NCBI GenBank assembly: GCA_013166835.1
Contig: JABLTI010000002.1
Coordinates: forward strand, 594-64,593
Origin: Promethearchaeati archaeon
GTDB lineage: Archaea; Asgardarchaeota; Heimdallarchaeia; JABLTI01
Length of the DNA stretch: 64,000 nt
Direction of reading: 5' to 3'
Numbering within the stretch: the stretch's first letter is position 1; each line of letters opens with the position of its first letter. Both the position numbers and the translations under genes were made by a program. This document shows positions 7,991-48,422 of this stretch, piece by piece. The notes beneath the pieces were generated by a model. That model saw nothing but the letters and a program-made list of their open reading frames with translations. It did no database searches and was not told the DNA's origin.

Positions 7991-10900
7991 TTAAGAGCCA
8001 ATTGCACTTTCAACTACTTCTTCACAGGAAATTTCGCGAAGTATTTCTTTGATAATATCAGGTGGGATACGCATTTCATTTGCAACTTGCATTGGATCAA
8101 AAATCGCTGCTTTCTTTCGCTCGCGATTCAAGATGAGGGAAATTTCAGCTTTCAACCTATCTGAGGAATAGAACGTTTTTTGATCATTATCAAGAATTCC
8201 CATATAGAGTGATGATAAGAATTCTCTTCGGACAATTGAAACAGAATCATTATGCTGAATACTAAATTCTTTTGTGATTGCTTCTAAATCAATTCTACCC
8301 CAAAGTTGGTATTCAGAGTAGAAGTACGAACGAATAGCTTGGATTTTATTTAATGATATGAAGACATCTTTGTTAATTGGTTGTCCTTCGATTTTTCTAG
8401 CAATGATTAGACTTTCAAGTAAATAATCTGAGAGTGGTAGTGATCTATCTGTTGATGAGAAGAGTGTTCGGTCGAATGTTCCTTTCTGTGACAGATCATA
8501 TATTATTCTGTTTTTAGTAGAGCTCATTATTTTCCTAAGCCTACCATGCGAAATGAAAGGAAGAGAAGCTATCAAGTCCCACGCAGCACCAACCTTTGAT
8601 GAATTTACTAACTTTAGGGTTCTAGCAATTGTCTTTGTGAACTTAGATTTCTTTAATTCAGCAAGCTCCATAATTCGTATGAAAATTGTTTCAAGCGAAT
8701 CCATGTCACAACCTGCCATTCTATTTACAGCAGTTTTTGTTAATAATTCAATAACAACTGTCTCAACATTCTTTCTTGTTTTCATTAATCGTAAGAATTT
8801 TAAAATTGCATTATCGTAAGCATTTGCTGCATCTTTGTTTGCTCCGATATCTTCGAAAATTTTTCCAGCTAATGCGATGAATTTTGTAGAAAGGTGTACT
8901 GGAATACGTGGTTGATCTATAAACGCAATACCTCTATTGAAGCATTTATTAGCAATTTCGTGTGCTTTCTGGAAATTTCTTACTCTTACTGCAGAATCTG
9001 ATGCAATTTTATAGCATTTATATGCAATATTTACATCTGCATCCCATTCTCGTGTTTGAAAGATTCGATTAATTAATCGATTTGAGCTTTCATCATCGTT
9101 TGCTTTATCAAAAGCTTCCACAGCTATTTCATAAAAGGTCATGGATTCAGGGATTTTTGTTTCTGTGACTAATCTGTCTCCTGCACTCAATGCAAAAAGC
9201 CCTATGTTTTTCAATTCTGTTGCCATAGATAATTTTTCATTGAGTTTCAAAGAGCTATCTAAGAAACTTATTGAATCACTATATTTCTTCTTCTCAAATT
9301 GTGCTTGAGCTGTTTTGAAGGAGGTTTCTGCAACTTCATTTGCTACATCAGAATTTCTTAAATCAATTAAAAGCAGAGCAGTGTGTTTCAAACGATAAGC
9401 TGCATCTTTATTCGCTCTTCTAAAAAGCTTCTGGAAGTCCCTTTGGTTATCAGTCAATTCCCTCTCAATAGCAGTTTGATTCTTTGATAATGTCAGAACT
9501 CGCATACATAATTCTACAATTTTCTTTCCTAGCGCATAATTATTATCATCTTTGCTTTCTTTTTCACCGAAAGAAATGATTGATTTTATGTAATCCGAAA
9601 TAACTTTGTAATCCACTTCTGCTCTATTTGAGTGTGGGACTTCAAATGCTTCAAGTCCTTCTATTATGTCTTCCAAAGTAGTTTGGGTAGTTCTTGCATT
9701 ATTTGTTGATAGTTGCTTGGCAAAATCTAGTAATGCTAGAACAACTGTTGTCATTAATGAGTCATTCTGTGTTTGAACCGCAATATCACGACTAGTTAAT
9801 AATGCATCATATCCTCTCACAGATTGCATATTAATAATCAAATCTTTAGATCCTAGCTTGAGAAATTCCTTCCCAACTTTTTCTATTGCATCCATATTTT
9901 GAACTTCTTGAAACATCTGGTAACAATAGCCTAGCAATTTGTATCTAATATCTAGGTCTGATTCTTGATCTAGAATTAATAATTGTTCAAAAGATTCACT
10001 GCCAATTAACGATAATAATTGCTGGCTTTCCGCATCTCTTGCTAATCTAATTGCAAAATCTAAGAAATAGAATCCTAATTGTGGTTTATTTAACATTATA
10101 TCTGCATTCGCTCTCTTAGTTAAAATTGATATTAGTTGATTGATTTTTTCTTCTTGTTTTGTTGCTTTAAAGAACTGCATAGCATCTCGAGTTATTTTAC
10201 CAATCATATTCCATTCGACATCTAGTGTTATTTTTATTCCTACTATGTAGGTTTCTGAAACATATGGTAGAAGCGCTCTTTTCGAGATATCGTGATTTCC
10301 CACAATCTCCAAAACCTTGGCACCTGCAATTGAATTCTTCTTACTAATTATATCGATAGCAAGTTTCAATGACAAATCAATAATCCTCTTAATTTCCTCT
10401 GGGTCTGGACTGCTATTCGCTAGATCTAAAGCTCTATTCAAGAAGAAAATTCCAATAGATGATTTTCTATTTGGTAAGAATTGGTTTGCAGCAGAAAGGT
10501 AAATACTAACAATTATTGCGAGAAGATCAAATCTGGAAATTTTCTCAACTAGTAATCTACCTTTCTCTAGAATATGAACGGCTTTAGTTAATTCATTTCC
10601 TTCCAAAAATCTTCTTGCTGATTCAAGAATTTGTTTTGTTGTCCCTACAGCACGCTCAATATTTTTATCTTTAAGATAAAGCTCAACTGCTTTTTGTGCA
10701 TTCTTGACAGCTTCATTTGCCTTACCTACACTTAGATGATTTCCAATAACTGTAGATGAAGTCTCTCCTGCTTTTGTATAAGCACCTGCTTTTTCAAAAA
10801 TTGTTACAGCTAGTTCATAAATATCATTTGCTTTTTCCAAGTCACTCTGAGCTAATTCAACAGCTTTAGCAAGTGTAATATCGCCAAGTTCATTACAACC

Positions 10901-13900
10901 AGCCATATTTTTAGTTTGCAATTCAATCTCAATTGCTTTATCTATAGCTAATCTCCCGCTTTTTTGATGCCCTAATTCAACTAAAATGAAACCTGAAATT
11001 AGATAGATTTTAGCTGCTTCATGTGAACCTAAAATTTCATTAGCAATGTTGGCAGCATAATCGATCAATTCTATACCGTTTACCTCGTCTCCTTTCTCAA
11101 TGAATCTATGACTCATTGATAAACAGAGATTTTTTGCATGTTCATGGTTTTCAGATTTCCGATAATACTCAATTGCAGTTTGAATAAAGCTCTTGGAGAG
11201 CTCCAATTCATTTTTATCATATAATTCACCAGCAATATTAGCTATTATATTTCCTTGTTCTAACATTCGCTCATTATTCTCTTCCAAGATTGGAAGTATT
11301 TGCGTAAACGCATTATTCATGGAATTATACATTCCAGCAGCTCGCAAACTTTCGATTCGCATACCATTGATTTCTAAAGCAAATTCTAGACTTGTTGAAA
11401 CACTGTAGTTTGCAACTTCTTCCCATAATTGCTCACCTTCCATAATTTTACCATTAGCAATTACATCTTGAGCATTTCCAACTAATTTGTGAATTGCTTT
11501 TTTCTGTTCATCTATATTCCCAGTTTTTTGATGTACTGTAACAATTTGTCCGGTAACTATGGAAGCATTCTGGTAATCCTTCATATCAAATAAGAGATCA
11601 GCAATTTCCTCTAAAATTTTTGCAGCTTGTTCGAATTCATTAGCAACCATTAAAGTGTCTGAAGCAAGCAGAACTAGTTTTACTCCCTCAACAATTCTAT
11701 TTTGTTTCAAAAGCGAATTGCAGGATTTCATATATACTTCAGAAGCTTTTATTGGTTGACTGAGTCGAAGATAGATGCCTGTAGACAAGTCAGCAATATG
11801 CAATCCAAGTTCAGTTTCTTCTTCCAATATGAAACTTGTAGCATAATTGGAAAGTTCCTCAGCAACACTCGGTGATTTCACTTTCTCATCTTGTTGCTCA
11901 AGTAAATTGACAGCTTGTAGAAATAGGTTGTATGTTGTTTGATGATCTTTGATTGAAGCAAAAGCTCTTGCTTCGAATAGGTAGACATCAATTGTTGTTT
12001 CAATAAGCTGTGATTCTTGAGCAATAGTAGAAGCTATTTCAAAACAGCTTAATGCATATTCTCTATTTCCGTCAGGGTTATTAATTAGTGATTTAGCTCC
12101 AATTTCAGCAGTTTTCAAAATGGAATTTGCTAGTTTCTCAGGGAGATTTGCTTGTTGATATGATTTGTTTGATAACTGTATTTGCCTTAATGCATTTACC
12201 CAATTTTCACGGCGAATATTGACATCAGCTAAAGCTTGAAATGCATCACCTGATCTTTCTGAATCGTTTGTTTTGATGAAGATCTGTGCTCCTGTCTCGA
12301 TTAGTTCCTCACCAAAGATGTAATTACCTTTCTCAATGAATAATTTTCCTTGAGCAAGTGCTGCTTCTCCAGCTTCCGTCAGCATTCCAATTTGATTTAA
12401 TATTGTAATACCGTTTCTAATGAATTCGGAAGCCTCATCAAACATTTCTTTTTGATCTCTCAAAATTCCTCCTTGAACGATGATTAATCTTCCTAGTTTT
12501 GCTAGATAGTCCTTCTCACCCTCAAGATTGTTTCTCGCAAAATCATGGAATTCCCTAACAGCATATAAATCGCCTAAATCAAGGAAAACGGTAGTTGAAT
12601 CATGAAGAATTTGATCTTGTGTTTCCAGATTTACTAGTGAACTAAATTCCATAGCAGTAATAAACAAGTGTTTAGCATGAATAGTTTCATTATTACTGAG
12701 AGCTCGTTTCGCTTTATCTGCACAATAAAATGCTATCTGTATAACAGGTTCATTTGAACCCAAACTTAAGTAAGATCCAACCGCTTTTCTTAATAGTTCA
12801 ATTCCGTCTTCAATGAAATTATAATCTACGAGAATTTTTGCTCCAAAGGAAACTTTTTGTGCGAAAATATCTGGGTTATTTTCACCTGTAATTATTTTAG
12901 TTAATTGAACTAACAGATCCTTAGCCAAATCATTTTGATTATTATCGAATAAAAGCTGACTATGTTCTATTAATAGGTTGGTTGCATCAAGACTTTCGCC
13001 AAGTAATGCTAAAGTATTGATACCTGTTTCAATGAAACTTTTTCCTAAAGTAAAATTCTGATCAGAGATTATTAATTGCTTCCCTGTTGAAAGCAATTTA
13101 TTAACAATATTCTTGTTTTCTTCTGGATAGTTTTTCCCCAGCACCCTTGTTGCATAAGCCAAATATTCAAGAGCAAGTTCAGGAAAACCAGTGAAAATTG
13201 CATGATCAGTAAATTCAAGAACAATGGTTGTTTCTGATATTGGATCCTTTTGTTGCGCACACTGAGCAGCGCCATTGAAAAGTTGTTTTGCTAAATTCAC
13301 ATTCTTTTCATTTAGCTTGTTTTTTGCTGCAATCACTAAGGGTGTAATTGCTCCAAGTATTTCTTCCTCAGCTTTTGCGCTTTTATATAATTTCGATGCT
13401 TCAATCATACGGAAAATTGATGCTTCATATTGTTCTAACCCTAATAATGATTCTCCGAAAGCTTTGTGCGATTTTGCAGCTCCTACTACATCACCAGCTT
13501 TTATTAGGTTCTCAACAGCTTTTATTGAGAGATTTTCTGCTTCTTTTATCTGATTTGCTTTACTTAATGCCACAGAAATTTGACTTAAGTTAGTACCTAA
13601 TTGATCAAATGCTTGGACTCCCTCTAATATTTCTTGTCCACTTTCAGTGTATTTTGTAGCTATCTCAATTTTTTTATTTGCAATTAATTCAACCGCTTTA
13701 GCAAAAATCTCATCTACAATAGCGGTAAACTTCTCGAGTAGTTTTCCAAAGAGATATGCTTTAGTAGAATTCTTGTAATCTTCTAATGCAATTTCAATTC
13801 TTCCTCTCAAAAACATGTTTTGAGCTTTTACTTGATAAAATGCTCCTATGTATTCCAAATCTATCTTTTCTATTTGGTGAATGCTTGCAAAATAATTCAT

Positions 13901-14941
13901 ACCAGTTGCAAACATTCCTTTCATACCCAAAAGAGCATAAGCATTCTTAACAATTCCATCAGCTAGTTTTAATGCTGAATCTTTTTGACCAATTTCAACA
14001 AGTAATTGTAATGCTTTATTATAGACCTCGAGAGCTGCGTCATATTTTTTCTTCGCATAAATTAATTGTGCATACTCAGAAAGAATTAGCGCAATTTCAG
14101 CAATTGTCTCAGTTAGACCAATATCTCTGCCTTTTTCAATTCCAAGATCTAATAGTTCTCCACCTGGATCTGTTTCATTTAATTTTTCTTTTATGGCTTT
14201 CAATAATTTCTTTGAACCCTTCCCAACGAGAATTTCTTGTGCTTGTGTAATTACAATCTTTATTGCATCTGCTGCTTTCCCTAACAATCTCTCAGCTTTA
14301 CAGTATTCAATCAATCCATCAAAAATAAGAAGTCCTTCTTCCAAAAAACCTTCCTCTAAAAGAAGTGTAAAAGCTTCGATTTCACCCTGAACTTTCTCTT
14401 CTTTCTTATTAATTTCTAGTAATGTTTCAGATGCTTCTTTAAGGTAATTGTTTCCTAATTTCCTATCTTCATCTTTTTTACTTGCGAGAATTAATAAAGC
14501 AATTTTTTGCAGATACTTCCCCTTTTCTGTTTGTGCTTCTTCAACATCTTTCTGAATTGCTTTTGCAGTAATTACCTTTTTATCAACAAAATCAAGTAAT
14601 AAATTATATCTCTTCTTTTTTTCTGCTTCTTCAATTAACTGATTTAATGGTTTTATTGCTTTCAAAAGGACTATCTTTTTTTCTGCTTCAGAAGTAATAC
14701 TTTCAAAAATAAATATGATTTCTACTAATAATGATGGAATATCTTCTTTCTCTGCATTCTCAATAGCTTTTAGTAGGGGTTCTTTAGCACTTTCTGGTTT
14801 ACCAGAATCAATGAATTCATTTGCAGCTTTAAGAAAAGTCTCCGCTGCATTTTTCCATTTGCTTTTTTCTTCTAATGCTATTGCTTTTTCCAATAATTGG
14901 GACATAATAACTTGCCTCTTAAATTCTTTAAACACGTACAA
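7991..14941 (-). CDS. giant (about 2,300 aa) cytoplasmic helical-repeat (TPR/SNAP-like alpha-solenoid) protein with a winged-helix-like C-terminus
   Basis: Uninterrupted 6.95-kb ORF. There is no signal peptide or TM segment. Degenerate antiparallel-helix repeats rich in A/L/E/K run throughout (e.g. WKNAAETFLKAANEFIDSGKPESAKEPLLKAIENAEKE; ALEVYNKALQLLVEIGQKDSALKLADGIV). The annotated start at 14941 is TTG. The first ATG, at 14905 (MSQLLEK...), has GAGG 9 nt upstream and is the more likely start. Confidence 0.8.
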   Translation of the reverse strand: MYVFKEFKRQVIMSQLLEKAIALEEKSKWKNAAETFLKAANEFIDSGKPESAKEPLLKAIENAEKEDIPSLLVEIIFIFESITSEAEKKIVLLKAIKPLNQLIEEAEKKKRYNLLLDFVDKKVITAKAIQKDVEEAQTEKGKYLQKIALLILASKKDEDRKLGNNYLKEASETLLEINKKEEKVQGEIEAFTLLLEEGFLEEGLLIFDGLIEYCKAERLLGKAADAIKIVITQAQEILVGKGSKKLLKAIKEKLNETDPGGELLDLGIEKGRDIGLTETIAEIALILSEYAQLIYAKKKYDAALEVYNKALQLLVEIGQKDSALKLADGIVKNAYALLGMKGMFATGMNYFASIHQIEKIDLEYIGAFYQVKAQNMFLRGRIEIALEDYKNSTKAYLFGKLLEKFTAIVDEIFAKAVELIANKKIEIATKYTESGQEILEGVQAFDQLGTNLSQISVALSKANQIKEAENLSIKAVENLIKAGDVVGAAKSHKAFGESLLGLEQYEASIFRMIEASKLYKSAKAEEEILGAITPLVIAAKNKLNEKNVNLAKQLFNGAAQCAQQKDPISETTIVLEFTDHAIFTGFPELALEYLAYATRVLGKNYPEENKNIVNKLLSTGKQLIISDQNFTLGKSFIETGINTLALLGESLDATNLLIEHSQLLFDNNQNDLAKDLLVQLTKIITGENNPDIFAQKVSFGAKILVDYNFIEDGIELLRKAVGSYLSLGSNEPVIQIAFYCADKAKRALSNNETIHAKHLFITAMEFSSLVNLETQDQILHDSTTVFLDLGDLYAVREFHDFARNNLEGEKDYLAKLGRLIIVQGGILRDQKEMFDEASEFIRNGITILNQIGMLTEAGEAALAQGKLFIEKGNYIFGEELIETGAQIFIKTNDSERSGDAFQALADVNIRRENWVNALRQIQLSNKSYQQANLPEKLANSILKTAEIGAKSLINNPDGNREYALSCFEIASTIAQESQLIETTIDVYLFEARAFASIKDHQTTYNLFLQAVNLLEQQDEKVKSPSVAEELSNYATSFILEEETELGLHIADLSTGIYLRLSQPIKASEVYMKSCNSLLKQNRIVEGVKLVLLASDTLMVANEFEQAAKILEEIADLLFDMKDYQNASIVTGQIVTVHQKTGNIDEQKKAIHKLVGNAQDVIANGKIMEGEQLWEEVANYSVSTSLEFALEINGMRIESLRAAGMYNSMNNAFTQILPILEENNERMLEQGNIIANIAGELYDKNELELSKSFIQTAIEYYRKSENHEHAKNLCLSMSHRFIEKGDEVNGIELIDYAANIANEILGSHEAAKIYLISGFILVELGHQKSGRLAIDKAIEIELQTKNMAGCNELGDITLAKAVELAQSDLEKANDIYELAVTIFEKAGAYTKAGETSSTVIGNHLSVGKANEAVKNAQKAVELYLKDKNIERAVGTTKQILESARRFLEGNELTKAVHILEKGRLLVEKISRFDLLAIIVSIYLSAANQFLPNRKSSIGIFFLNRALDLANSSPDPEEIKRIIDLSLKLAIDIISKKNSIAGAKVLEIVGNHDISKRALLPYVSETYIVGIKITLDVEWNMIGKITRDAMQFFKATKQEEKINQLISILTKRANADIMLNKPQLGFYFLDFAIRLARDAESQQLLSLIGSESFEQLLILDQESDLDIRYKLLGYCYQMFQEVQNMDAIEKVGKEFLKLGSKDLIINMQSVRGYDALLTSRDIAVQTQNDSLMTTVVLALLDFAKQLSTNNARTTQTTLEDIIEGLEAFEVPHSNRAEVDYKVISDYIKSIISFGEKESKDDNNYALGKKIVELCMRVLTLSKNQTAIERELTDNQRDFQKLFRRANKDAAYRLKHTALLLIDLRNSDVANEVAETSFKTAQAQFEKKKYSDSISFLDSSLKLNEKLSMATELKNIGLFALSAGDRLVTETKIPESMTFYEIAVEAFDKANDDESSNRLINRIFQTREWDADVNIAYKCYKIASDSAVRVRNFQKAHEIANKCFNRGIAFIDQPRIPVHLSTKFIALAGKIFEDIGANKDAANAYDNAILKFLRLMKTRKNVETVVIELLTKTAVNRMAGCDMDSLETIFIRIMELAELKKSKFTKTIARTLKLVNSSKVGAAWDLIASLPFISHGRLRKIMSSTKNRIIYDLSQKGTFDRTLFSSTDRSLPLSDYLLESLIIARKIEGQPINKDVFISLNKIQAIRSYFYSEYQLWGRIDLEAITKEFSIQHNDSVSIVRREFLSSLYMGILDNDQKTFYSSDRLKAEISLILNRERKKAAIFDPMQVANEMRIPPDIIKEILREISCEEVVESAIGS

Positions 14942-15049: not shown

Positions 15050-17236
15050 CTAGAAAGTATCATCAGGGGGTGGTGGTAAGGGAATTAACATACCATTTTC
15101 TAGATATTTTATTAATACAATTAATGCTTCTTCTTTCGAAAGATTGATTTCAGGATTTTGATAGGCTACATCTATCAATTCTGTAACATAAAATACTTCA
15201 TCCTCTGTTTTTGTCAAAAATTCAGTGTAAGTTTTAGCTAATTTCTTTTCGTTTTGAGTAATTGCTGTTAACCTCATTCTTTTGACGTCTGGTTTCAATG
15301 GATAAAGATATTCGAGTCTCAAATGCTTTTCAAGCAAGTCTGTTGCACCAGTAAATGTAGAAATAAACCCTGTGAAATTCAAAAGATCTTTCTTATAATT
15401 AGCTTCGAATTCATTCATGAAGAATTTTATTCGTTTCTTTAATAGAGCTCCTAACTTTTCAGTAACTAATAAAGCTGTTTTAGAATGTTCTCCTTCGTAG
15501 ATTATAATCCAAAAACCTTCACGACCAATCTCACTGAAAACACCAATACGTTTTTCTGTTTCTCCGGACATTTCTTCAGTAAATGTACCAACTGCACTCA
15601 AGAATCCACTTGTTAAAGAAACATCAATATCCTTGCCAAAACCTTGACTGAATAAGGGAACACCAGATTGTGAATGAATAAGTATAACATGTCTGATTTT
15701 CAAAATATCATTGAAAAATTCTGCCCCTGCTTCAGGATCAGCTTCCAAATCTAATGGTAGAAAGTAATTAGCTTCTGGTTCGACCTCTGCAGGTTGTTCT
15801 TTATCTTCTTGCCATTCAATTTCTTTACTTTCACCCATGCCTGCAAGGGAGCTTTCCACTTTTGATTTTACTTTGTCAATTCCTTGTTGTGTTTGGGTTT
15901 GACCATCAGTTTGAGCAGCATAAGGTGGATATGGTTCATAAGGTGAACCAATAGAATACGGACTACCATGAGTTTGAGCATCAATTTGTGGTTTTCTAGT
16001 AGCTGATTCTTGCTTGCTTACGGGAGCAACATATTGACGACAACTATAGCAATACCAGCGTCTATACTGTTCTATGAATCGGACTTGTGATTGGCAATTG
16101 GGACAGAAATTATTTGTAACATCAGGTGAATGTGGGGCAGGTGGTTTTGTTCCAGCTGGTGCAACACTTTGATAGGGTAGTAATTCTGCATTTGGTTTTT
16201 CTCTTGTTTTATCTCTCATAAAACTAAATGCTACAATTCTTCTCTTATCAATTGAGAAAACCAAGTCATTTGAACTATTGCCATTTAAATCTCCAATGCG
16301 AAGATCGTTAATATTACTATAACCCTCATAGCTTTCCATGGTGTTTTTACGGAAGATATGAAATGAACCATTAGCAGTTCCAACAACTACTTCTAGTTGT
16401 CGATCATTATCAACATCACCCACAGCGCCACAAGTTATTGCTCCATCCAAATTATGAATAGACATTAATCTATTTCGTTTGAAGATGCTCAGTCTTCCAG
16501 AGTATTCTCCAATCATAACTTCTGAAATACCATCTCGGTCAATATCTCCACTAAAGCAAAAACTAGGTTCTGTTTCTACTCTGAATTCACCTATTAAATC
16601 AAATTTCTGTAATTGTGGCCTGAATTCAATTTCTTTGAACATACCATCTTTGGATCCCGCAATAAATCCTATTTGTCCATTTCCATTGAAATCTCCAGTT
16701 ATTACATTGTTTACTGGTTGCTGGTAAACTTTACCTAATGAGAATCCTCTGATTTTATCCCAGCGATGTTTTTTCCCGGGGATTCTCTCAACCATAACTA
16801 CTTCACCATTTGCACAACCAACAACTATCTCAGAAAGTTTATTTCCATTCATATCCCCAGGTGCTGCTCGAAGAACAGCAGAGGGCAGACGAATTCCATC
16901 CTTAATATCTTTACTAAAGAAAGGTTTGCCATTTCGAGAATTAATTCGAACAACACCTTTGATATCACCCGTTACTAACTCAAATCCTCTATCTAAACTT
17001 GTTTGAGCGACACACATTGTGTTGATTTTCTCATTAATTTTTACCCCATAGTTAGCCATATGCTTGGGGTGTATGATGCATACTTCTGTTCCTCCCTTTC
17101 CTAATCTAGCCGCCATTATTTCTGATATACCATCTATATTGAAATCATGAGTTAATAATGAATGGAAATTTTGTGTTACTTCCTCAAGAGTTTGTTGCAA
17201 TGATACAAACGACCAATTAGTTAATTTCTCTCTCAT
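15050..17236 (-). CDS. multidomain protein: 7-bladed FG-GAP-like beta-propeller, zinc ribbon, low-complexity linker, longin-like domain, winged-helix-like tail
   Basis: Seven spaced blade motifs: HDFNIDGISEI, GDIKG, GDMNGNKLSEIVVG, GDFNGNGQIGFIAG, GDIDRDGISEVMIG, GDVDNDRQLEVVVG, GDLNGNSSNDLV. Zinc ribbon CPNC-x16-CYSC. P/Q/Y/T-rich linker. A beta-beta-alpha-beta-beta-beta-alpha pattern (IRHVILIHSQSGVPLFSQGFG..DVSLTSGFLSAVGTFTEEM...FWIIIYEGEHSKTALLV...). No signal peptide or TM. Confidence 0.8.
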   Translation of the reverse strand: MREKLTNWSFVSLQQTLEEVTQNFHSLLTHDFNIDGISEIMAARLGKGGTEVCIIHPKHMANYGVKINEKINTMCVAQTSLDRGFELVTGDIKGVVRINSRNGKPFFSKDIKDGIRLPSAVLRAAPGDMNGNKLSEIVVGCANGEVVMVERIPGKKHRWDKIRGFSLGKVYQQPVNNVITGDFNGNGQIGFIAGSKDGMFKEIEFRPQLQKFDLIGEFRVETEPSFCFSGDIDRDGISEVMIGEYSGRLSIFKRNRLMSIHNLDGAITCGAVGDVDNDRQLEVVVGTANGSFHIFRKNTMESYEGYSNINDLRIGDLNGNSSNDLVFSIDKRRIVAFSFMRDKTREKPNAELLPYQSVAPAGTKPPAPHSPDVTNNFCPNCQSQVRFIEQYRRWYCYSCRQYVAPVSKQESATRKPQIDAQTHGSPYSIGSPYEPYPPYAAQTDGQTQTQQGIDKVKSKVESSLAGMGESKEIEWQEDKEQPAEVEPEANYFLPLDLEADPEAGAEFFNDILKIRHVILIHSQSGVPLFSQGFGKDIDVSLTSGFLSAVGTFTEEMSGETEKRIGVFSEIGREGFWIIIYEGEHSKTALLVTEKLGALLKKRIKFFMNEFEANYKKDLLNFTGFISTFTGATDLLEKHLRLEYLYPLKPDVKRMRLTAITQNEKKLAKTYTEFLTKTEDEVFYVTELIDVAYQNPEINLSKEEALIVLIKYLENGMLIPLPPPPDDTF

Positions 17237-17519: not shown

Positions 17520-18194
17520 GTGTCAGCATTAATGGATGAAAGTTTGAAATCGGTTGTCTCACAGCGATTTACTAATATGATAGAGCCTGTTACATTGAAG
17601 GTCTTTTCTAATAAGAATCATTGCTTATTCTGTAATGAAATGATTTCTTTAGTGAATTCTGTTGCAGAATTATCTGATAAGATCAAAGTTGAGATTTGTG
17701 ATTGTGAAGAAAATGATCTTAAAGCAAAGGAATATGGGATAGAAAGACATCCTGCAATATCGATTGATGGGGATAAGGACTATGGAATTAGATTCTATGG
17801 GGTTCCTGCAGGTAAAGAATTTACTACATTCATTGAATCAATTATGTTAGTTTCCGGCAGAAAACCAGTACTCACCTCGGAAGCAACAGAATTACTGTCT
17901 AAAGTGAACCACAAGGTAAATCTAAAAGTCTTTGTTACTTTAGAATGTCCCTACTGCCCAGCAATGGTTATTCGAGCTCACAAGTTAGCTTTAGCCAATG
18001 ATTACATAACAGCGGAAATGATTGAGTCCTCGCAATTTGCTCAGCTAGCTGCAGATTTCGATATCTTTGGTGTGCCAAATACTATAATTAACAACGGCTT
18101 AGGAAGTGTGGAGGGTTTGGTAACAGAGGAAGTTTTGCTTCAACAAATACTTGCTGCTTTGGAAAGAACCGGAGAAAAAAGCCCTTTCACATAA
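17520..18194 (+). CDS. protein disulfide oxidoreductase (glutaredoxin-like, two thioredoxin folds)
   Basis: 224 aa with two CxxC sites in two Trx-like halves (CLFC and CPYC), ending in GVPNTIIN. This is the architecture of Pyrococcus-type PDO. GTG start with AGGAG upstream. Confidence 0.8.
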   Translation: MSALMDESLKSVVSQRFTNMIEPVTLKVFSNKNHCLFCNEMISLVNSVAELSDKIKVEICDCEENDLKAKEYGIERHPAISIDGDKDYGIRFYGVPAGKEFTTFIESIMLVSGRKPVLTSEATELLSKVNHKVNLKVFVTLECPYCPAMVIRAHKLALANDYITAEMIESSQFAQLAADFDIFGVPNTIINNGLGSVEGLVTEEVLLQQILAALERTGEKSPFT

Positions 18195-18348
18195 ATCGAA
18201 TAATTGGTTGTAAAAAAAATTAATTTTACAACTACTCTTATCATTCCAAATCTTAGAAAATAAGCAATCTTTAATAAATTAGTTCACTTTTTTTTGCGAT
18301 ATCTTTTTCAAGAAGATGAAATTCAAACTATATTCGAGGTAAAAAAAA

Positions 18349-19536
18349 TTGGTTAGCCAAGAAATAAAACCTAACATTTTTTATGTTGGAGCAAAGGATT
18401 ATGATAGGCGACTCTTTGATGATTTGATACCTTTACCTGATGGAACAACCTATAATTCTTATCTTGTCATTGGTAGTAAGAAAACAGCTTTAATTGATGC
18501 TGTAGATGCAACAAAATTCTATGAACTAAAAGCGAATATTGCCAAAACTCCTGTCAAAACTATTGATTATCTTGTATCAAATCACTCTGAGCAGGATCAT
18601 TCAGAAAGCTTAGTTAAACTCACTAAAATGTATCCTGATGCTAAAGTTGTTACTAATCCAAAAGGTAAAGAACATCTTATGGTTCATTTACATATTCCAG
18701 AAGAAAAATTCATTGTTAAAAAGGATGGAGAGACTCTTTCTCTAGGTGACAAGACACTTCAATTTATTGAAGCTCCTTGGGTTCATTGGCCTGAAACCAT
18801 GTTCACCTTAGTTATAGAAGACAAGATTCTTTTTTCATGTGATCTTTTCGGAACCCATCTCGCACAATCAGAGACTTTTGTAACTGATGAAGCAAAAACC
18901 TATGAGTCTGCCAAAAGGTATTATGCTGAAATTATGATGCCTTTCAGGAAATTGATTGTTAAACATTGTAAGAAACTTGAAGATTATGATTTTGATATGA
19001 TTGCTCCAAGTCATGGTCCGATTCATAAAAATCCTAAGCATATTATTAATGCTTACAAGGATTGGATTTCTGATAATGTGAAAAATGAAGTAATACTCCC
19101 TTATGTTTCAATGCATCACTCCGTTCGAGAAATGGTGGAGTATTTAACTGAAGCTCTTATTGAACGTGGTATTGTTGTTAAACCATTCAATTTAACAGCT
19201 ACCGATTTAGGCGAATTAGCTATGGCTCTTGTCGATGCTGCAACAATAGTTGTCGGTGCACCAGCAGTTCTTACAGGTGCTCATCCAGTTGCAGCCTATG
19301 CTGTTTTCTTAACCAATGCTTTGCGACCAAAAGCTAAACATCTTACAATAATTGGTTCTTTTGGTTGGAAATGCCAGATGCTTGAACAACTTACAGGTAT
19401 GCTTACTCGTCTAAAAGCTGAAATACTTGAGCCAGTTATTGTTCGAGGAAAAGTAACTGATGAAGGTAAAAAGAAACTAGATGCACTAGCAGATACTATT
19501 CAGAAAAAACATAAAGAATTAGGCATTTTAAGCTAG
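18349..19536 (+). CDS. fprA: flavodiiron protein (FprA / A-type flavoprotein; O2 or NO reductase)
   Basis: Metallo-beta-lactamase-like N-domain with the FDP diiron motif H-x-E-x-D-H (NHSEQDHSE), plus a C-terminal flavodoxin-like domain. About 395 aa, as in the family. Confidence 0.85.
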   Translation: MVSQEIKPNIFYVGAKDYDRRLFDDLIPLPDGTTYNSYLVIGSKKTALIDAVDATKFYELKANIAKTPVKTIDYLVSNHSEQDHSESLVKLTKMYPDAKVVTNPKGKEHLMVHLHIPEEKFIVKKDGETLSLGDKTLQFIEAPWVHWPETMFTLVIEDKILFSCDLFGTHLAQSETFVTDEAKTYESAKRYYAEIMMPFRKLIVKHCKKLEDYDFDMIAPSHGPIHKNPKHIINAYKDWISDNVKNEVILPYVSMHHSVREMVEYLTEALIERGIVVKPFNLTATDLGELAMALVDAATIVVGAPAVLTGAHPVAAYAVFLTNALRPKAKHLTIIGSFGWKCQMLEQLTGMLTRLKAEILEPVIVRGKVTDEGKKKLDALADTIQKKHKELGILS

Positions 19537-19666
19537 AATTTCAAAATTTTCAGAGAATTCTAGTTCCATTTTTCTTTTTTCATCGCTTTATAGATTTTCC
19601 ACTTTATAATTTATAGAAAAATTATTAATAAGACTCTTATTTAAAATTCTTAATGGAGTTCTCGTT

Positions 19667-20059
19667 ATGGCTAAAAAGTTAGAGATTTATAAATGCGAGA
19701 TATGTGGCAATATAATTGAAGTTCTCCATGGTGGTCAAGGCCAACTTGTATGTTGTGGTCAACCAATGATTCTCCTTGAAGAGCAGACTGCTGATTGGAA
19801 AAATGAAAAACATGTTCCAGTAATCAAAGAGAAGAAAGACGACGAAGGCAATTTAAAAGGCATCAAAGTCGTTGTTGGTAGTACCCCTCACCCGATGGTA
19901 GATGATCACTATATTGAGTGGATCGAAGTTATCAAAGACGGCAAGGCTTATAGAAAGTTCTTGAAACCTGGGGATGATCCAAAAGCTAAATTCAAAATGA
20001 AAGCTGATGGAGTCATTGCTCGAGAATACTGTAATAAGCACGGCTTATGGAAAAACTAA
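19667..20059 (+). CDS. dfx: desulfoferrodoxin (2Fe superoxide reductase)
   Basis: N-terminal desulforedoxin site CEIC...CCG. The SOR centre II motifs [16 protein letters not shown] and CNKHGLW are all present. Confidence 0.9.
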
Positions 20060-20074
20060 ACGAGTGGATACGAT

Positions 20075-20614
20075 ATGGGTAAATCAGTAAATGCTGGAGA
20101 ATCACAAGCAAGAAACCGCTATACAATGTATTCCAAAATAGCTTTCAAAGAAGAATATGTACAAATTGCTGCATTATTTACTGAAACAGCAGATAATGAA
20201 TATCAACATGCTAAACAATTCTTTAATTTCCTTGAAGGTGGCATGGTGGAATTCACAGCAGCTTATCCAACTGACATTGGTACTACAGAAGAGAATCTAA
20301 AATTCGCTGCAATGGGCGAAAACGAAGAGCATACAATACTTTATCCCGGATTTGCTAAGGTTGCTGAAGAAGAAGGTTTTCCAGAAGTTGCATTGAAATT
20401 CAAAAATATTGCTAAAGTTGAAGTTGAACATGAAAAGAGATACCTTGCACTTTTAGAGAGTATTAAAGAAGGTACAGTATTCAAAAAATCAAAGAAAATG
20501 CGATGGAAATGTCGCGTTTGTGGTTTTGTATACGAAGGTGAAGAACCACCAGAAATATGTCCAGTATGTGGACATGATCATCATTTCTACGAGCTCATTT
20601 GCGAAGAATACTAG
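20075..20614 (+). CDS. rbr: rubrerythrin
   Basis: Ferritin-like diiron ExxH motifs ([29 protein letters not shown]) followed by a C-terminal rubredoxin-like CRVC...CPVC. Confidence 0.9.
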
Positions 20615-44366: not shown

Positions 44367-45707
44367 TTGCTTAAGTTGGAGAAGAATAGCTTGATAAAAA
44401 GAGTGTTAATTATAAAAAATAATCTCCCATTAGTCTATAGAAATTATGAACCTGGTGCAGATCAAAGTCTAGGAACCTCTTTTGGGGATTATCAATCATT
44501 AGTAGAGTCAATTGCAAGTAAAGCTATACATGGTCAACAGAGAGAAGAAATTTCAGGAAATAATAAATTAGTGTATGAATTAGATGAATCGATTCTTTTC
44601 CTTGTTAGTACTGATACAAATGAAGTTGGTGTAATTGAAATCCTCATTCCAGAGCTTAAAAACCTCTTTTTCGCAGTATTTCCCAAAGATTATGTTTTAG
44701 GGTGGACTGGAGATGATACCTCTGTTTTCAAAGGATTTGATTCCAAATTAGATCAATTAAGAAGTGCTTTTGAAAATAGAATTATGACGAAACCAGGGAG
44801 TAGAAGAATTATAGATACACTAAGTGTTATGGAGTTACCTCAAAGATTACAAAAAACAGCCTTAAAAATCCTTGATGCAAAAATAGCTTCCTTTGAGGAA
44901 ATCATTGAAACAACAAATGTTTCACCTCAAGAAGCAGTTGCAAATATACAAGAAATTCTGAATGCTGGATTTCTTTACACGACAAAGATAGGTAATAAGG
45001 TATTTTATTCAGTTAAATCCTTTGGTGAAGCAGCTCCCTTAGTAGCACCACCAAGTATTGCTCCAAGTGTAACACCAACAGCTCCTATTGAACCTGTTCA
45101 AGCAACAACGGCTTCTGATGCCACGATAGGAGTTGAGGTGACAAAGCGAGATGTTAACAAAGGTAATATGCCTTTCTTAATGAAGCAATTCAAGAAGGAA
45201 TTGGATAAAGTCTTTAATACAATCATAAATGGGGAATTGCTTCTCATTGTGCTCGATCCGGAAACTGATAAGAACCAAGTTTTGTTAAATATGATTTTGG
45301 ATACTTTCCAATGTTTTGTCCCTGAACGTGAATTACGTATTGTGAATTTTGCTAATGATTTCATTCACCCTAGAGATGCCGATATTATTCGTATAGATAG
45401 AAACCTGATACAATTTTACTCAAATGAAACATTGCTAGATATGGATAGCAAGAAAATCATAAATGGTGATAATTCCATTTATTTAGCAGACATAATAAAA
45501 GAAATGTTGAAATTGAAACATCATTCAGAATGTGTTTCTCTTCTAATAAATCGTGTCGCTCTCATAGAGAAACTTGCTCAAGATTGGGCTAAAATAAAGA
45601 AGTTAAATCTTCCATCTGAAGATTTCATAACAAATGTGAGAACAAAACATAATCCAGCAATCATTGAAGTTATGGATAATGTTGCTGTTAATCTCTTTAT
45701 GGACTAA
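44367..45707 (+). CDS. hypothetical protein: N-terminal longin-like domain, winged helix, A/P/T-rich linker, unknown C-terminal domain
   Basis: IKRVLIIKNNLPLVYRNYEP...YQSLVESIASKAI...LVYELDESILFLVSTDT...IEILIPELKNLFFAVF gives a beta-beta-alpha-beta-beta-beta-alpha pattern. wH segment: TALKILDAKIASFEEIIETTNVSPQEAVANIQEILNAGFLYTTKIGNKVFYSV. Linker: APLVAPPSIAPSVTPTAPIEP. The start codon is uncertain. Confidence 0.5.
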   Translation: MLKLEKNSLIKRVLIIKNNLPLVYRNYEPGADQSLGTSFGDYQSLVESIASKAIHGQQREEISGNNKLVYELDESILFLVSTDTNEVGVIEILIPELKNLFFAVFPKDYVLGWTGDDTSVFKGFDSKLDQLRSAFENRIMTKPGSRRIIDTLSVMELPQRLQKTALKILDAKIASFEEIIETTNVSPQEAVANIQEILNAGFLYTTKIGNKVFYSVKSFGEAAPLVAPPSIAPSVTPTAPIEPVQATTASDATIGVEVTKRDVNKGNMPFLMKQFKKELDKVFNTIINGELLLIVLDPETDKNQVLLNMILDTFQCFVPERELRIVNFANDFIHPRDADIIRIDRNLIQFYSNETLLDMDSKKIINGDNSIYLADIIKEMLKLKHHSECVSLLINRVALIEKLAQDWAKIKKLNLPSEDFITNVRTKHNPAIIEVMDNVAVNLFMD

Positions 45708-45750
45708 TAGTTCACTTAAGAACTATTATCGTCTATTTTTATTTTTTTCA
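45707..45750 (+). terminator. hairpin plus T-tract
   Basis: ATAGTTC (45707-45713) pairs with GAACTAT (45720-45726), then TATCGTCTATTTTTATTTTTTTC. Confidence 0.4.
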
Positions 45751-45894
45751 TCTAATTTTCAGCTAATTGTGCACTATGTGCTTTAATGCTAAAAGTTATA
45801 ATTAATAGTGAAGAATCATAATATTAGTTGAAAAGGTAAATATCGAAATCTTTTTCACAGAATGAGGATTTAATCATAATTAAGGTGTTGAAAT

Positions 45895-46641
45895 ATGACT
45901 GATATTTCAGAAGTTTTGTCAGCTCTGAAACGTGGGGATTTAACCGTTGAAGAAGTCCTGAAAGAGCTGAACGATTTGTTAACAACTGTTAAGAAAGGTA
46001 TAGATGAACTCAAACAACCAATAGAGAATCTAGTTGAGTTTGAAAAAAGACAGAGTGATGAAATATTACAATTTGAATCAGGCAATTTGTCATTGTCACA
46101 AGAAATAGCTTCACTAACTGAAGAAAAAGCTACTAGTGAAAATTCACTTCAAAGAACTCAAGAAGAGTATACTGAGACAACAGAAAAAAGGGTGAAACTT
46201 GAGACAAAGGTCAGAGAGTTATCAACAGAATTGTCTAACACAAAGAAAAGGTTAGAAGCAGCAAATGCAGAACTAGCTGTTGAAACTGAAACTAATCAGA
46301 AAATAGTAGCTGAATTAAGTACTATTGTTGAATCTGCCGAACAAAAAGTTTTAGGAATTGAAAATCAAGCAGAAAAGGAAAGAGATATCATACGAAAATC
46401 AAAAGGTGAACGTATGGCTCTTGAATTTTTGATAAAGAAAAACCACATTGAATTCAATGAAATTAAGGTTATCAACTCATTAGATGGTAGAACTAATACT
46501 GATATGGCAACTATCTCAAAAATTACTGGTTTATCTGAAGCTTTAATATCAAAAACTCTACAAGGTTTAGAAAAAAGAAATTTGATTTCCTATGATGGCT
46601 CAACAGGAGCTATAACCGTGACAGGGAGTATGAAACTTTAG
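45895..46641 (+). CDS. coiled-coil protein with C-terminal winged-helix-like domain
   Basis: About 170 aa of heptad-like E/K/L/T-rich sequence, then a wH-like tail (MATISKITGLSEALISKTLQGLEKRNLISYDGSTGAITVTG). AAGGTG lies upstream of the ATG. Confidence 0.55.
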   Translation: MTDISEVLSALKRGDLTVEEVLKELNDLLTTVKKGIDELKQPIENLVEFEKRQSDEILQFESGNLSLSQEIASLTEEKATSENSLQRTQEEYTETTEKRVKLETKVRELSTELSNTKKRLEAANAELAVETETNQKIVAELSTIVESAEQKVLGIENQAEKERDIIRKSKGERMALEFLIKKNHIEFNEIKVINSLDGRTNTDMATISKITGLSEALISKTLQGLEKRNLISYDGSTGAITVTGSMKL

Positions 46642-46652
46642 GAGGGAAAAAA

Positions 46653-47402: not shown

Positions 47403-47406
47403 GATT

Positions 47407-47438
47407 GGATTCGACAAAAATTGAATCCCTTTTTTTAT
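47407..47438 (+). terminator. hairpin plus T-tract
   Basis: GGATTC (47407-47412) pairs with GAATCC (47423-47428), then CTTTTTTTATC. Confidence 0.4.
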
Positions 47439-47545
47439 CTTATGATTCAAAATATGACAACAAACTTGATACATTAGATGGATTTATTAATATAATTCAT
47501 GAATATGATTTCGTAGTAAAATATTGACAAAAAACTAATTCATCA

Positions 47546-48103: not shown

Positions 48104-48122
48104 TAGTTGGGGGTATTGTTGA

Positions 48123-48422
48123 ATGGTAGAAATCTCAAGACCTATGATCCTTCGGATTGGAACACCGAAAGTTGAAAAAGATATCAAAAAAGTACATAAA
48201 TTGCTAATTAGTGCAGGATACCAGAAAATTGAGGAAGGAAAATATGCACATAATGCAGAACCTACACTTTCAGCATTGCTACACTTAGATACGATTAAGG
48301 ATCAAGAAGGAAATCCTTTGGAAGAAGTTATAGAATTAATTCTTTCAGATGCTGATAGTTATGTCAATCAAACAATTTATAATGCGTTGGCAACTGTTTT
48401 TCCACTAGAATTAACAAAATAA
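48123..48422 (+). CDS. small hypothetical protein co-transcribed with the Arf-like GTPase
   Basis: 99-aa ORF starting 19 nt after the GTPase stop, preceded by GGGGG. Mixed alpha/beta pattern, no recognised motif. Confidence 0.4.
   Translation: MVEISRPMILRIGTPKVEKDIKKVHKLLISAGYQKIEEGKYAHNAEPTLSALLHLDTIKDQEGNPLEEVIELILSDADSYVNQTIYNALATVFPLELTK

What the first reader, a model, noticed from the sequence alone, without database searches (positions are those of the whole stretch)
15050..17236. Cytoplasmic FG-GAP propeller fused to a zinc ribbon, a P/Q/Y-rich linker and a longin-like plus wH module
FG-GAP/VCBS propellers with Ca-binding-type DxNxDG loops are normally extracellular, as in integrin alpha and bacterial adhesins. 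Here seven such blades start right at residue ~30 with no leader. They are followed by CPNC-x16-CYSC, a low-complexity stretch (SPYSIGSPYEPYPPYAAQTDGQTQTQQG), an acidic segment, a beta-beta-alpha-beta-beta-beta-alpha unit and a wH-like tail ending in PLPPPPDD. I do not recognise this domain combination. The longin-like plus wH half recurs as the N-terminal half of the 446-aa protein at 44367.
Basis: partly seen in the sequence, partly recalled or inferred. Interest (0 to 1): 0.7.

Follow-up and report, generated by a model that had tools for sequence, protein, structure and literature searches.

The report
Cytoplasmic propeller–longin scaffold protein of Heimdall archaea
This is a real, highly conserved 728-residue protein of a small group of Heimdall-type Asgard archaea, and its tail belongs to a large, uncurated Asgard-only domain family that probably links membrane receptors and other sensors to small GTPase switches.

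Summary
The ORF at 15050-17236 (-) is real. It is one uninterrupted reading frame with 27 full-length orthologues at 57-96% identity, found only in Heimdall-type Asgard MAGs. There are seven FG-GAP blades with no signal peptide or membrane helix, and an invariant CxxC-x14-CxxC zinc ribbon (x14, not x16). A disordered P/Q/Y/acidic linker follows. The C-terminal module models confidently (pLDDT 85) as a longin/roadblock-type domain, a helical connector and an acidic winged-helix-like end with an invariant PLPPPP tail.

The new point is that this module is not an orphan. It defines an Asgard-only family of at least 928 clusters (50% identity) that no Pfam or NCBIfam model covers. In about 80% of the 149 members examined it sits directly after a single membrane helix, as the cytoplasmic tail of receptor-like proteins. 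Other members are fused to Ras-type GTPases, HerA ATPases or HEAT repeats. The window protein is a rare soluble member.

The closest solved propellers are cytoplasmic eukaryotic ones (ITFG2, BBS2/7), not integrins. A 2,316-residue TPR-like gene always follows it.

The likely function, a small-GTPase platform or scaffold, is inferred. Homology to the 44367 protein is only weakly supported.

The parts
15050..17236 (-). Whole ORF, 728 aa from the ATG. The probable true start is the TTG at 17200 (residue 13).
16202..17161 (-). Seven-bladed FG-GAP-type beta-propeller (residues ~26-345), with no signal peptide
   Evidence: Pfam above threshold. Seven D-x-[DN]-x-[DN]-G-type signatures. AF2 strands at 26-303, with blade 7 at low confidence. 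Foldseek top hits are ITFG2 and BBS2/7.
16025..16111 (-). Zinc ribbon, CPNC-x14-CYSC (residues 376-404)
   Evidence: All four Cys are invariant in 27 orthologues. Zn-ribbon Pfam hits are below threshold. Three short strands in the AF2 model.
15770..16024 (-). Disordered linker (residues 405-489): conserved GSPY, a P/Q/Y-rich stretch, then an acidic stretch
   Evidence: pLDDT below 50. Net charge -10, pI 4.3. Variable length among orthologues.
15737..15769 (-). Conserved short motif NYFLPLDLEAD (residues 490-500), just before the module
   Evidence: Y, P, D, E and D are invariant in the orthologues.
15380..15736 (-). Longin/roadblock-superfamily domain (residues 501-619), topology alpha-beta-beta-alpha-beta-beta-beta-alpha
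   Evidence: AF2 pLDDT mostly 75-94. Foldseek hits: AP sigma, Sec22b longin (TM 0.78), Fuzzy, NPRL3, MglB, LAMTOR, Loki Roadblock3.
15260..15379 (-). Helical connector containing the family-wide YLYP.K motif (residues 620-659)
15077..15259 (-). Acidic winged-helix-like end of the module (residues 660-720)
   Evidence: Order of helices and strands in the AF2 model. Net charge -5, putative recognition helix -1.
15053..15082 (-). Invariant C-terminal tail P-L-P-P-P-P followed by acidic residues
   Evidence: P719 and P721-P724 are invariant in 27 orthologues.
7991..14941 (-). Downstream 2,316-aa TPR-like all-helical protein, the candidate partner
   Evidence: Same strand, about 110 bp downstream. 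It follows the gene in 15 of 15 related loci that are long enough. TPR_12 E 7.7e-9.
44367..45707 (+). 446-aa protein whose residues 13-207 may be a remote relative of the module. It heads a conserved cluster that ends in an Arf-family GTPase.
   Evidence: weak similarity; cluster

Best explanation
The protein is a soluble, cytoplasmic member of a large Asgard-only family. The family is defined by a C-terminal module of about 220 residues: a longin/roadblock-type domain, a helical connector and an acidic winged-helix-like domain.

In most members the module lies directly after a single membrane helix, as the intracellular tail of receptor-like proteins with big ectodomains. In this Heimdall-group protein the ectodomain and membrane helix are replaced by an intracellular seven-bladed FG-GAP propeller, a zinc ribbon and a flexible linker.

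I infer that it works as a scaffold. The propeller binds a partner or ligand inside the cell. The 2,316-residue TPR-like protein encoded about 110 bp downstream on the same strand, and so possibly co-transcribed, is the obvious candidate. The longin/wH module, probably as a dimer, docks or regulates a small Ras/Arf-type GTPase, as longin and roadblock domains do elsewhere.

Shown here: the architecture, the cytoplasmic topology, the family and its fusions.

Inferred: GTPase binding, partnership with the neighbouring gene, dimerisation.
For: - **Architecture and conservation:**
- **No signal peptide or membrane helix:**. The zinc-ribbon Cys are invariant, which suits a reducing compartment.
- **Longin/roadblock fold:** Foldseek probability about 1.0 to AP sigma, Sec22b, Fuzzy, NPRL3, MglB, LAMTOR, the Rag C-terminal domains and Prometheoarchaeum Roadblock3. 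Chain C of 9o5a was identified as NPRL3 from its size and construct.
- **Family size:** 928 representatives at E<=1e-3 and 334 at E<=1e-10.
- **Membrane context:** 119 of 149 members have a membrane helix ending where the module starts, and most have an N-terminal signal or anchor plus extracellular-type domains.
- **Fusions to Ras-family GTPases:** P0095 and P0097, with module E-values of 2e-33 and 5e-27.
- **Taxonomy:** all 12 member clusters that carry a source name are Asgard.
- **Published context:** Asgard GTPase-longin/roadblock fusions are interpreted as functional GTPase-regulator links (PMC10933270; bioRxiv 10.1101/2020.10.19.343400).
- **Neighbour:** the gene pair is conserved in 15 of 15 loci.
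- **wH charge:** the wH-like part is acidic, which favours protein binding over DNA binding.
Against: - No GTPase gene is adjacent; the nearest is about 30 kb away.
- No sequence-level match links the module to any curated longin or roadblock family or to any solved structure. Foldseek E-values are only 4e-4 to 5e-3.
- No family-wide catalytic arginine was identified. The G-x-P in the beta1-beta2 loop is conserved only in the closest subfamily.
- The module is also fused to HerA-type ATPases and HEAT repeats, so it could be a generic assembly domain.
- The whole neighbourhood is syntenic among these closely related genomes, so the conserved pairing with the giant gene is weak evidence of partnership.
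- The propeller model has only moderate confidence: pLDDT about 65-85, with blade 7 low.
Confidence: 0.5

Rival explanations
1. The module is a generic oligomerisation or assembly domain with no GTPase link. It clusters receptors, ATPases and scaffolds through longin-type dimerisation and wH protein contacts. The window protein would then be a structural adaptor for the giant TPR protein.
For: Fusion partners are diverse: HerA/FtsK-type ATPases, HEAT repeats and many unrelated ectodomains. No conserved catalytic residue was found. No GTPase gene is adjacent here.
Against: Ras-GTPase fusions are among the module's closest relatives. Most characterised longin and roadblock domains act on small GTPases (established knowledge; PMC10933270, PMC12290439).
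Confidence: 0.3
2. It is a one-component transcription regulator. The wH end binds DNA, the longin-like domain or the propeller senses a ligand, and the membrane-bound relatives are membrane-tethered regulators.
For: A wH-like terminal domain is present. The module often sits next to sensor-like domains.
Against: The wH-like segment is acidic here (net -5), its putative recognition helix is -1, and the family mean is about -1. It ends in a proline tail rather than a full wing. No HTH family was hit in Pfam or NCBIfam.
Confidence: 0.07
3. It is a specific archaeal homologue of the eukaryotic cytoplasmic propeller proteins ITFG2 or BBS2/7. With its longin module and the neighbouring solenoid it would form an ancestor-like version of the KICSTOR-GATOR1 or BBSome/coat assemblies.
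For: ITFG2 is the only significant PDB sequence hit (E 1.6e-7, or 1.8e-8 with the orthologue profile) and the top Foldseek hit, followed by BBS2, BBS7, BBS9 and BBS1. NPRL3 of GATOR1 is the second-best fold match of the module. The adjacent gene is a giant helical-repeat protein.
Against: The sequence match covers two blades only. Prokaryotic extracellular FG-GAP proteins score higher (64 bits against 33-36 bits), and they also cross-hit the Itfg2 and BBS Pfam models. The Pfam Itfg2, BBS7 and BBS2_Mid scores are below threshold. The giant protein shows no similarity to SZT2 or to any solved chain.
Confidence: 0.1
4. It is an ordinary secreted or surface FG-GAP adhesin whose leader was missed.
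For: Most prokaryotic FG-GAP proteins, including module-bearing relatives such as P0094, are extracellular.
Against: None of the 27 orthologues has an N-terminal hydrophobic segment, from either possible start. There is no membrane helix between the propeller and the module, which is cytoplasmic in its relatives. The Cys4 zinc ribbon is invariant.
Confidence: 0.03

Closest known systems
Asgard multidomain Roadblock/longin-superfamily proteins (GTPase-longin/roadblock fusions; NPRL2-like longin fusions; PMC10933270, bioRxiv 10.1101/2020.10.19.343400)
   Same: Asgard-restricted. A longin/roadblock-type fold in lineage-specific fusions, including fusion to Ras-like GTPases.
   Different: This module carries a fixed helical connector and a wH-like end, and no curated model detects it. 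Its main context is the tail of single-pass membrane proteins. I found no description of the FG-GAP + zinc ribbon fusion: the search for 'Asgard' with 'FG-GAP' returned no papers.
NPRL2/NPRL3 of GATOR1 (a longin domain followed by C-terminal domains; GAP for RagA)
   Same: Order of a longin domain followed by helical and wH-like parts. NPRL3 is the second-best Foldseek match, aligned over 296 columns.
   Different: The overall superposition is poor (TM 0.32/0.19, rmsd 13.9). There is no sequence similarity. No arginine finger was identified. The loop has G-x-P instead of the GP motif, and only in the nearest subfamily (PMC12290439).
ITFG2 (KICSTOR) and the BBS2/BBS7/BBS9/BBS1 propellers
   Same: Cytoplasmic seven-bladed FG-GAP-type propellers. 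They are the best solved matches by sequence (ITFG2 only) and by fold.
   Different: Below the Pfam thresholds for those families. The match covers two blades. The protein is more similar to prokaryotic FG-GAP proteins. The eukaryotic proteins have no longin fusion or zinc ribbon.
MglB / LAMTOR / dynein LC7 Roadblock domains and SNARE/adaptor longin domains
   Same: A five-stranded sheet sandwiched by helices. Foldseek probability about 1.0. The Sec22b longin domain superposes with TM 0.78 and rmsd 2.5 A.
   Different: The module has both an N-terminal helix (roadblock-like) and a long C-terminal helix, so longin versus roadblock is not settled. There is no sequence-level relationship.
Prokaryotic extracellular FG-GAP/VCBS proteins, including module-bearing receptor-like relatives such as P0094
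   Same: FG-GAP repeats. P0094 has the same order of propeller then module, and its module is 32% identical over 222 residues (E 4e-32).
   Different: P0094 has a signal peptide, TSP3 repeats and a membrane helix between the propeller and the module. The window protein has none of these and has a zinc ribbon instead. The propellers themselves are only weakly similar (E 5e-8).

Membership tests
FG-GAP / VCBS beta-propeller (Pfam PF13517, PF01839) | Profile score above the curated threshold | tested here: met
   FG-GAP_3 scores 41.4 bits against a cut-off of 26.9. FG-GAP scores 29.1 bits against 22.1.
FG-GAP / VCBS beta-propeller (Pfam PF13517, PF01839) | About seven repeats with a D-x-[DN]-x-[DN]-G-type loop, folding as a propeller | tested here: met
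   Signatures at residues 31, 90 (degenerate), 128, 182, 231, 274 and 316. The AF2 model has four-stranded blades at 26-303, with blade 7 at low confidence. The top Foldseek hits are seven-bladed propellers.
ITFG2 family (Pfam PF15907; KICSTOR subunit) | Profile score above the curated threshold over most of the propeller | tested here: not met
   22.1 bits against a cut-off of 27, with only residues 262-299 matched. The PDB sequence match covers two blades.
ITFG2 family (Pfam PF15907; KICSTOR subunit) | Partnership with KPTN, KICS2 and SZT2 | tested here: not met
   The neighbouring giant protein has no detectable similarity to SZT2 or to any solved chain. No KPTN- or KICS2-like gene was seen in the window (with Pfam on selected ORFs).
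Longin / Roadblock superfamily | Five-stranded antiparallel sheet with beta-beta-alpha-beta-beta-beta order, flanked by helices | tested here: met
   AF2 model elements: H12-22, E25-32, E38-43, H50-66, E78-83, E86-92, E96-102, H108-130. pLDDT 85.5.
Longin / Roadblock superfamily | Structural match to solved members | tested here: met
   Foldseek probability 0.95-1.00 to AP sigma, Sec22b (TM 0.78), Ykt6, Fuzzy, NPRL3, MglB, LAMTOR, Rag C-terminal domains and Loki Roadblock3. E-values are modest, 4e-4 to 5e-3.
Longin / Roadblock superfamily | Sequence-profile membership in a curated longin or Robl_LC7 family | tested here: not met
   No Pfam or NCBIfam hit to the module in the window protein or in nine other members. 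No PDB sequence hit with profiles A2 or A4.
Longin / Roadblock superfamily | Binding or regulation of a small GTPase | not testable with these tools
   The only support is indirect: Ras-family GTPase fusions in P0095 and P0097.
GAP-type longins (FLCN, NPRL2, SMCR8, C9orf72; PMC12290439) | GP motif before strand beta2 plus an arginine finger | tested here: inconclusive
   The loop reads S-G-V-P here. The G is invariant family-wide, but the P occurs only in the nearest subfamily. A conserved basic residue (R in most members, K here) lies on a later strand, and its spatial position could not be checked.
Winged helix | H1-S1-H2-H3-S2 order | tested here: inconclusive
   Secondary-structure order is H172-187, a bridge at about 193, H195-204, H212-224, E228-230. 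The domain was not searched on its own, and the second wing strand is replaced by the proline tail.
Winged helix | Basic recognition helix (DNA-binding class) | tested here: not met
   Net charge is -5 for the domain and -1 for helix 3.
Zinc ribbon | Two CxxC knuckles on beta hairpins | tested here: met
   C378, C381, C396 and C399 are invariant in 27 orthologues. The model has short strands at 386-388, 393-396 and 401-403. Pfam zinc-ribbon hits are below threshold.
The Asgard longin-wH tail module defined here (profiles A2, A4) | Full-length match to the module profile at the C-terminus | tested here: met
   The window protein scores 216 bits (E 3.6e-66) against the profile built from 151 diverse members.
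The Asgard longin-wH tail module defined here (profiles A2, A4) | Membership of the 44367 protein | tested here: inconclusive
   HMM E 0.93. hhalign probability 22%, P 9e-4, collinear over 179 columns, above 120 shuffles and the reversed control.

The most novel reading that the evidence does not exclude
The propeller-longin protein and the adjacent 2,316-residue helical-repeat protein form an archaeal complex. It would be built on the same parts list (beta-propeller + alpha-solenoid + longin platform acting on a small GTPase) as the eukaryotic KICSTOR-GATOR1, BBSome and coat/adaptor assemblies. The wider module family would then be a previously undescribed Asgard system of transmembrane receptors that signal directly to small GTPases.
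Probability: 0.12. Interest if true: 0.9.

Novelty: new variant of a known kind. Interest (0 to 1): 0.6.

Why it matters
Asgard archaea are known to have many longin/roadblock proteins and small GTPases, but what these connect to is largely unknown.

This analysis defines a large Asgard-only longin-wH module that no curated model covers. It mostly forms the intracellular tail of single-pass receptor-like proteins, and it is sometimes fused directly to a Ras-type GTPase.

If the module does dock GTPases, that gives a concrete and testable route from the cell surface to GTPase switches in the closest prokaryotic relatives of eukaryotes. The window protein is the soluble member best suited to biochemistry. 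It is highly conserved, has no membrane helix, and combines a cytoplasmic ITFG2/BBS-like propeller with the module next to a giant solenoid gene.

Tried and rejected
- **Missed stop or frameshift:** rejected. The ORF is single and there are 27 collinear orthologues.
- **Signal peptide, lipobox or membrane helix:** none found in any orthologue.
- **Sequence searches of the module** against Pfam, NCBIfam and PDB found nothing. The TIM and B-Raf hits are noise at E>0.05.
- **Homology of the 44367 protein to the module:** not detected by BLASTP, by the narrow profile-profile comparison or by the HMM. Only the broad profile gives a weak signal.
- **SZT2-like nature of the giant neighbour:** no support.
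- **Third homologue search, with the diverse module alignment:** it returned only 11 proteins, mostly fragments.
- **Metagenome scan:** With A5 it returned only the source contig of P0094. A neighbourhood test for GTPase enrichment around other family members therefore could not be done.
- **Pfam at E up to 10 on the 44367 family and the 99-aa gene after the Arf GTPase:** nothing found.
- **Literature searches for Asgard with FG-GAP, or longin with winged helix:** no description of this architecture found.
- **DNA-binding wH reading:** disfavoured by charge.
Full report

The window has about 33% G+C. It carries a single uninterrupted ORF at 15050..17236 on the minus strand, 728 codons from an ATG. 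A search of 5.8 billion proteins returned 28 close relatives at 57-94% identity. All that carry a source name are labelled Heimdallarchaeota, Asgard group or (one partial) Thorarchaeota. The full-length ones are 708-728 aa.

An alignment of 27 of them is collinear from end to end. A missed stop or frameshift is therefore excluded.

The orthologues begin at the equivalent of residue 13 (MQQTLEE). That codon is TTG in the window, so the true start is probably 17200.

**2. Anatomy of the N-terminal half**

Pfam calls FG-GAP_3 (41.4 bits, cut-off 26.9) and FG-GAP (29.1 bits, cut-off 22.1). Seven D-x-[DN]-x-[DN]-G-type signatures lie at residues 31, 90, 128, 182, 231, 274 and 316.

No stretch of the protein approaches a membrane-helix hydropathy score, whereas relatives of the C-terminal module have clear ones.

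The zinc ribbon is C378-x2-C381-x14-C396-x2-C399. The spacing is 14 residues, not 16, and all four Cys are invariant.

After it come:
- a conserved GSPY,
- a P/Q/Y-rich stretch of variable length,
- an acidic stretch (linker net charge -10),
- an invariant-core motif, NYFLPLDLEAD.

A full-length AF2 model (mean pLDDT 62.7) shows four-stranded blades from residue 26 to 303. Blade 7 and the linker have low confidence.

**3. Anatomy of the C-terminal module**

Residues 490-728 were modelled with 14 orthologues and gave pLDDT 85.5 and pTM 0.83. The element order is helix, two strands, helix, three strands and a long helix. Short helices follow, and then a helix/strand arrangement compatible with a winged helix.

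Foldseek against the PDB returns only longin/roadblock-superfamily proteins at probability about 1.0:
- AP sigma subunits,
- the Sec22b longin domain (TM 0.78, rmsd 2.5 A),
- Ykt6, Fuzzy, Mon1-Ccz1, sedlin,
- MglB, LAMTOR subunits, the Rag C-terminal domains,
- Roadblock3 of Prometheoarchaeum.

E-values are modest, 4e-4 to 5e-3.

The second-best hit is chain C of the KICSTOR-GATOR1 complex, aligned over 296 columns. That chain is NPRL3. Its 461 modelled residues fit only that subunit, and the tagged NPRL3 construct of 8fw5 chain C is shared with 9o5a and 9o5d.

The presence of both an N-terminal and a long C-terminal helix leaves longin versus roadblock topology open.

The wH-like end is acidic (net -5, helix 3 net -1), which argues against DNA binding. 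The last residues, P-L-P-P-P-P, are invariant in all 27 orthologues.

**4. The module is a large, uncurated Asgard family**

A profile of the module was searched against 1.84 billion cluster representatives. It found 928 proteins at E<=1e-3 and 334 at E<=1e-10. They range from about 200 to 2,640 residues, with the module mostly at the C-terminus.

No Pfam or NCBIfam model hits the module in the window protein or in other members. No solved structure matches it by sequence, even with an 18-member diverse profile.

Of the 149 members examined:
- 119 have a predicted membrane helix that ends where the module starts.
- Among the 87 of those 119 that start with Met, 57 have an N-terminal signal or anchor.
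- Their N-terminal parts carry extracellular-type domains: FG-GAP and LVIVD propellers, SBP_bac_5, TSP3 repeats and Ig-like domains.
- Basic residues follow the helix, as in P0094 and P0128.

The module is therefore cytoplasmic in these proteins.

The minority without a membrane helix include:
- two Ras-family GTPase fusions (P0095, P0097),
- seven HerA/FtsK-type ATPase fusions,
- a HEAT-repeat fusion,
- stand-alone modules.

All 12 clusters that carry a source name are Asgard: Hodarchaeota, Promethearchaeota/Lokiarchaeota, Lokiarchaeum ossiferum and 'Asgard group'.

Family-wide conserved positions are few:
- the G of the beta1-beta2 loop,
- the SGFLxA helix,
- an F-E pair,
- the P of the YLYP.K motif,
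- a mostly-Arg position on a later strand.

**5. What is special about the window protein**

It has the same order, propeller then module, as the receptor-like relative P0094, whose module is 32% identical (E 4e-32). P0094, however, has a signal peptide, TSP3 repeats and a membrane helix between the two parts. The window protein has none of these and has a zinc ribbon and a flexible linker instead. Its propeller must therefore be on the cytoplasmic side.

The fusion is narrowly distributed. A scan of one genome per GTDB species found it in 10 genomes. Nine are labelled Heimdallarchaeota and one Bathyarchaeia, the last probably a mislabelled bin.

**6. Which propellers is it closest to?**

ITFG2 of KICSTOR is the only significant PDB sequence hit. 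It gives E 1.6e-7 with the single sequence and 1.8e-8 with the orthologue profile. ITFG2 is also the top Foldseek hit for the full-length model (E 1.6e-9). BBS2, BBS7, BBS9, BBS1 and LRRK2-WD40 follow, and no integrin appears in the top 50.

I do not read this as orthology, for three reasons:
- The sequence match covers two blades only.
- The Pfam Itfg2, BBS7 and BBS2_Mid scores are below threshold.
- Prokaryotic extracellular FG-GAP proteins score higher (64 bits). They also carry precomputed Itfg2, BBS2_Mid or BBS7 Pfam hits.

ITFG2 is the nearest solved relative. It shows that cytoplasmic FG-GAP-type propellers exist, and nothing more is established.

**7. Genomic context**

A 2,316-residue all-helical protein with weak TPR signal (TPR_12 E 7.7e-9) lies about 110 bp downstream on the same strand. 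The same gene follows in all 15 related loci that extend far enough. In the most divergent locus a glyoxalase gene is inserted between the two.

The whole neighbourhood is syntenic in these genomes, so this is only modest evidence for a partnership. The giant protein has no similarity to SZT2 or to any solved chain.

The upstream genes on the other strand are redox and oxidative-stress genes. No GTPase gene is adjacent; the nearest is an Arf-family gene at 47546.

**8. The 44367 protein**

Its family has 42 relatives, and all named ones are Asgard. No Pfam model hits it. The tests of similarity to the module gave:
- BLASTP: a collinear but non-significant alignment, E 0.5.
- Orthologue-only profile comparison: nothing, probability 0.2%.
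- Broad-family HMM: nothing, E 0.93.
- hhalign with the 151-member profile: module columns 25-229 align to residues 13-207, with score 32.7, probability 22% and P 9e-4.

That last score exceeds all 120 column and block shuffles (maximum 27.1) and the reversed control (16.7). One strand appears to be missing in the aligned region.

Remote homology is plausible but unproven.

The gene heads a cluster that is kept in three divergent genomes: the 446-aa protein, two coiled-coil + wH proteins, an Arf-family GTPase and a 99-aa protein.

**9. Mechanism**

My best reading (confidence about 0.5) is that the protein is a cytoplasmic scaffold. The propeller binds a partner or ligand, possibly the giant TPR protein. 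The longin/wH module, probably dimeric, docks or regulates a small GTPase.

Shown here: the architecture, the topology, the family and the GTPase fusions.

Inferred: everything about binding.

The literature supports the general logic:
- Asgard genomes are rich in GTPase-longin/roadblock fusions, taken as evidence of functional coupling (PMC10933270).
- NPRL2-like longin fusions are reported in lineage-specific architectures (bioRxiv 10.1101/2020.10.19.343400).

Here the loop reads G-V-P, and only in the nearest subfamily, so GAP-type membership is inconclusive.

The rivals are listed with their evidence in the Rival explanations section:
- a generic assembly domain (0.3),
- a specific ITFG2/BBS-like ancestor complex (0.1),
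- a transcription regulator (0.07),
- a missed secreted adhesin (0.03).

**10. Novelty**

The kinds of parts are known: Asgard longin/roadblock expansions, domain shuffling, FG-GAP propellers and zinc ribbons. Three things appear to be new, as far as the searched literature shows:
- the delimitation of this longin-wH module as a large family,
- its dominant position just inside the membrane in receptor-like proteins,
- the soluble fusion of a cytoplasmic FG-GAP propeller, a zinc ribbon and the module.

I rate it a new variant of a known kind, with interest 0.6.

Noticed in passing
window 7991-14941 (-): A 2,316-aa all-helical protein with weak TPR signal and no other detectable domain lies about 110 bp downstream of the finding on the same strand. 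It follows the gene in 15 of 15 related loci. It is less conserved (40-94% identity) than the propeller-longin protein (56-96%).
   Followed up: partly
window 44367-48422 (+): A conserved cluster of five genes: a 446-aa protein of unknown family, two paralogous coiled-coil + wH proteins of about 248 aa, an Arf-family GTPase (Pfam Arf E 3e-51) and a 99-aa protein with no family. The same order is kept in L018-L020, whose copies of the first gene are 53-63% identical.
   Followed up: partly
P0095, P0097 (Ras GTPase + module); P0109, P0111, P0112, P0149, P0154, P0162, P0235 (HerA/FtsK-type ATPase + module + about 200 more residues); P0137 (HEAT repeats + module): These are soluble fusions of the same longin-wH module to a Ras-family GTPase, to HerA-type P-loop ATPases and to HEAT repeats. 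The ATPase fusion recurs in several clusters and is unexplained.
   Followed up: partly
window 17200 / 17236: The longest ORF starts at the ATG at 17236, but all orthologues start at the equivalent of residue 13, a TTG at 17200. A TATA-like TTTATAG lies about 45 nt upstream of the ATG.
   Followed up: partly
window 17520-20614 (+): A divergently oriented redox cluster. Here it contains a double-thioredoxin-fold protein and an ODP-family metallo-beta-lactamase-fold protein. By synteny with L001 and L004-L006 it also contains desulfoferrodoxin and rubrerythrin. This oxygen-defence set sits next to the finding in all related genomes.
   Followed up: partly
L010 (DATKZI010000004.1): A genome labelled 'Candidatus Bathyarchaeia archaeon' carries a 74%-identical orthologue. 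The tblastn values for it and for its downstream giant gene are identical to those of Heimdall-type locus L006. The bin is probably mislabelled or contaminated.
   Followed up: no
window 15053-15082 (-), residues 719-728: The invariant C-terminal P-L-P-P-P-P tail is specific to this orthologue group. The wider family conserves only the G-[IL]-[LIV]-x-P of the last strand. Heimdall profilin is reported to bind polyproline (PMC8410842), so the tail is a candidate ligand.
   Followed up: no
window 1-64000: No tRNA gene (ARAGORN) and no Rfam family at gathering score anywhere in the 64 kb.
   Followed up: yes
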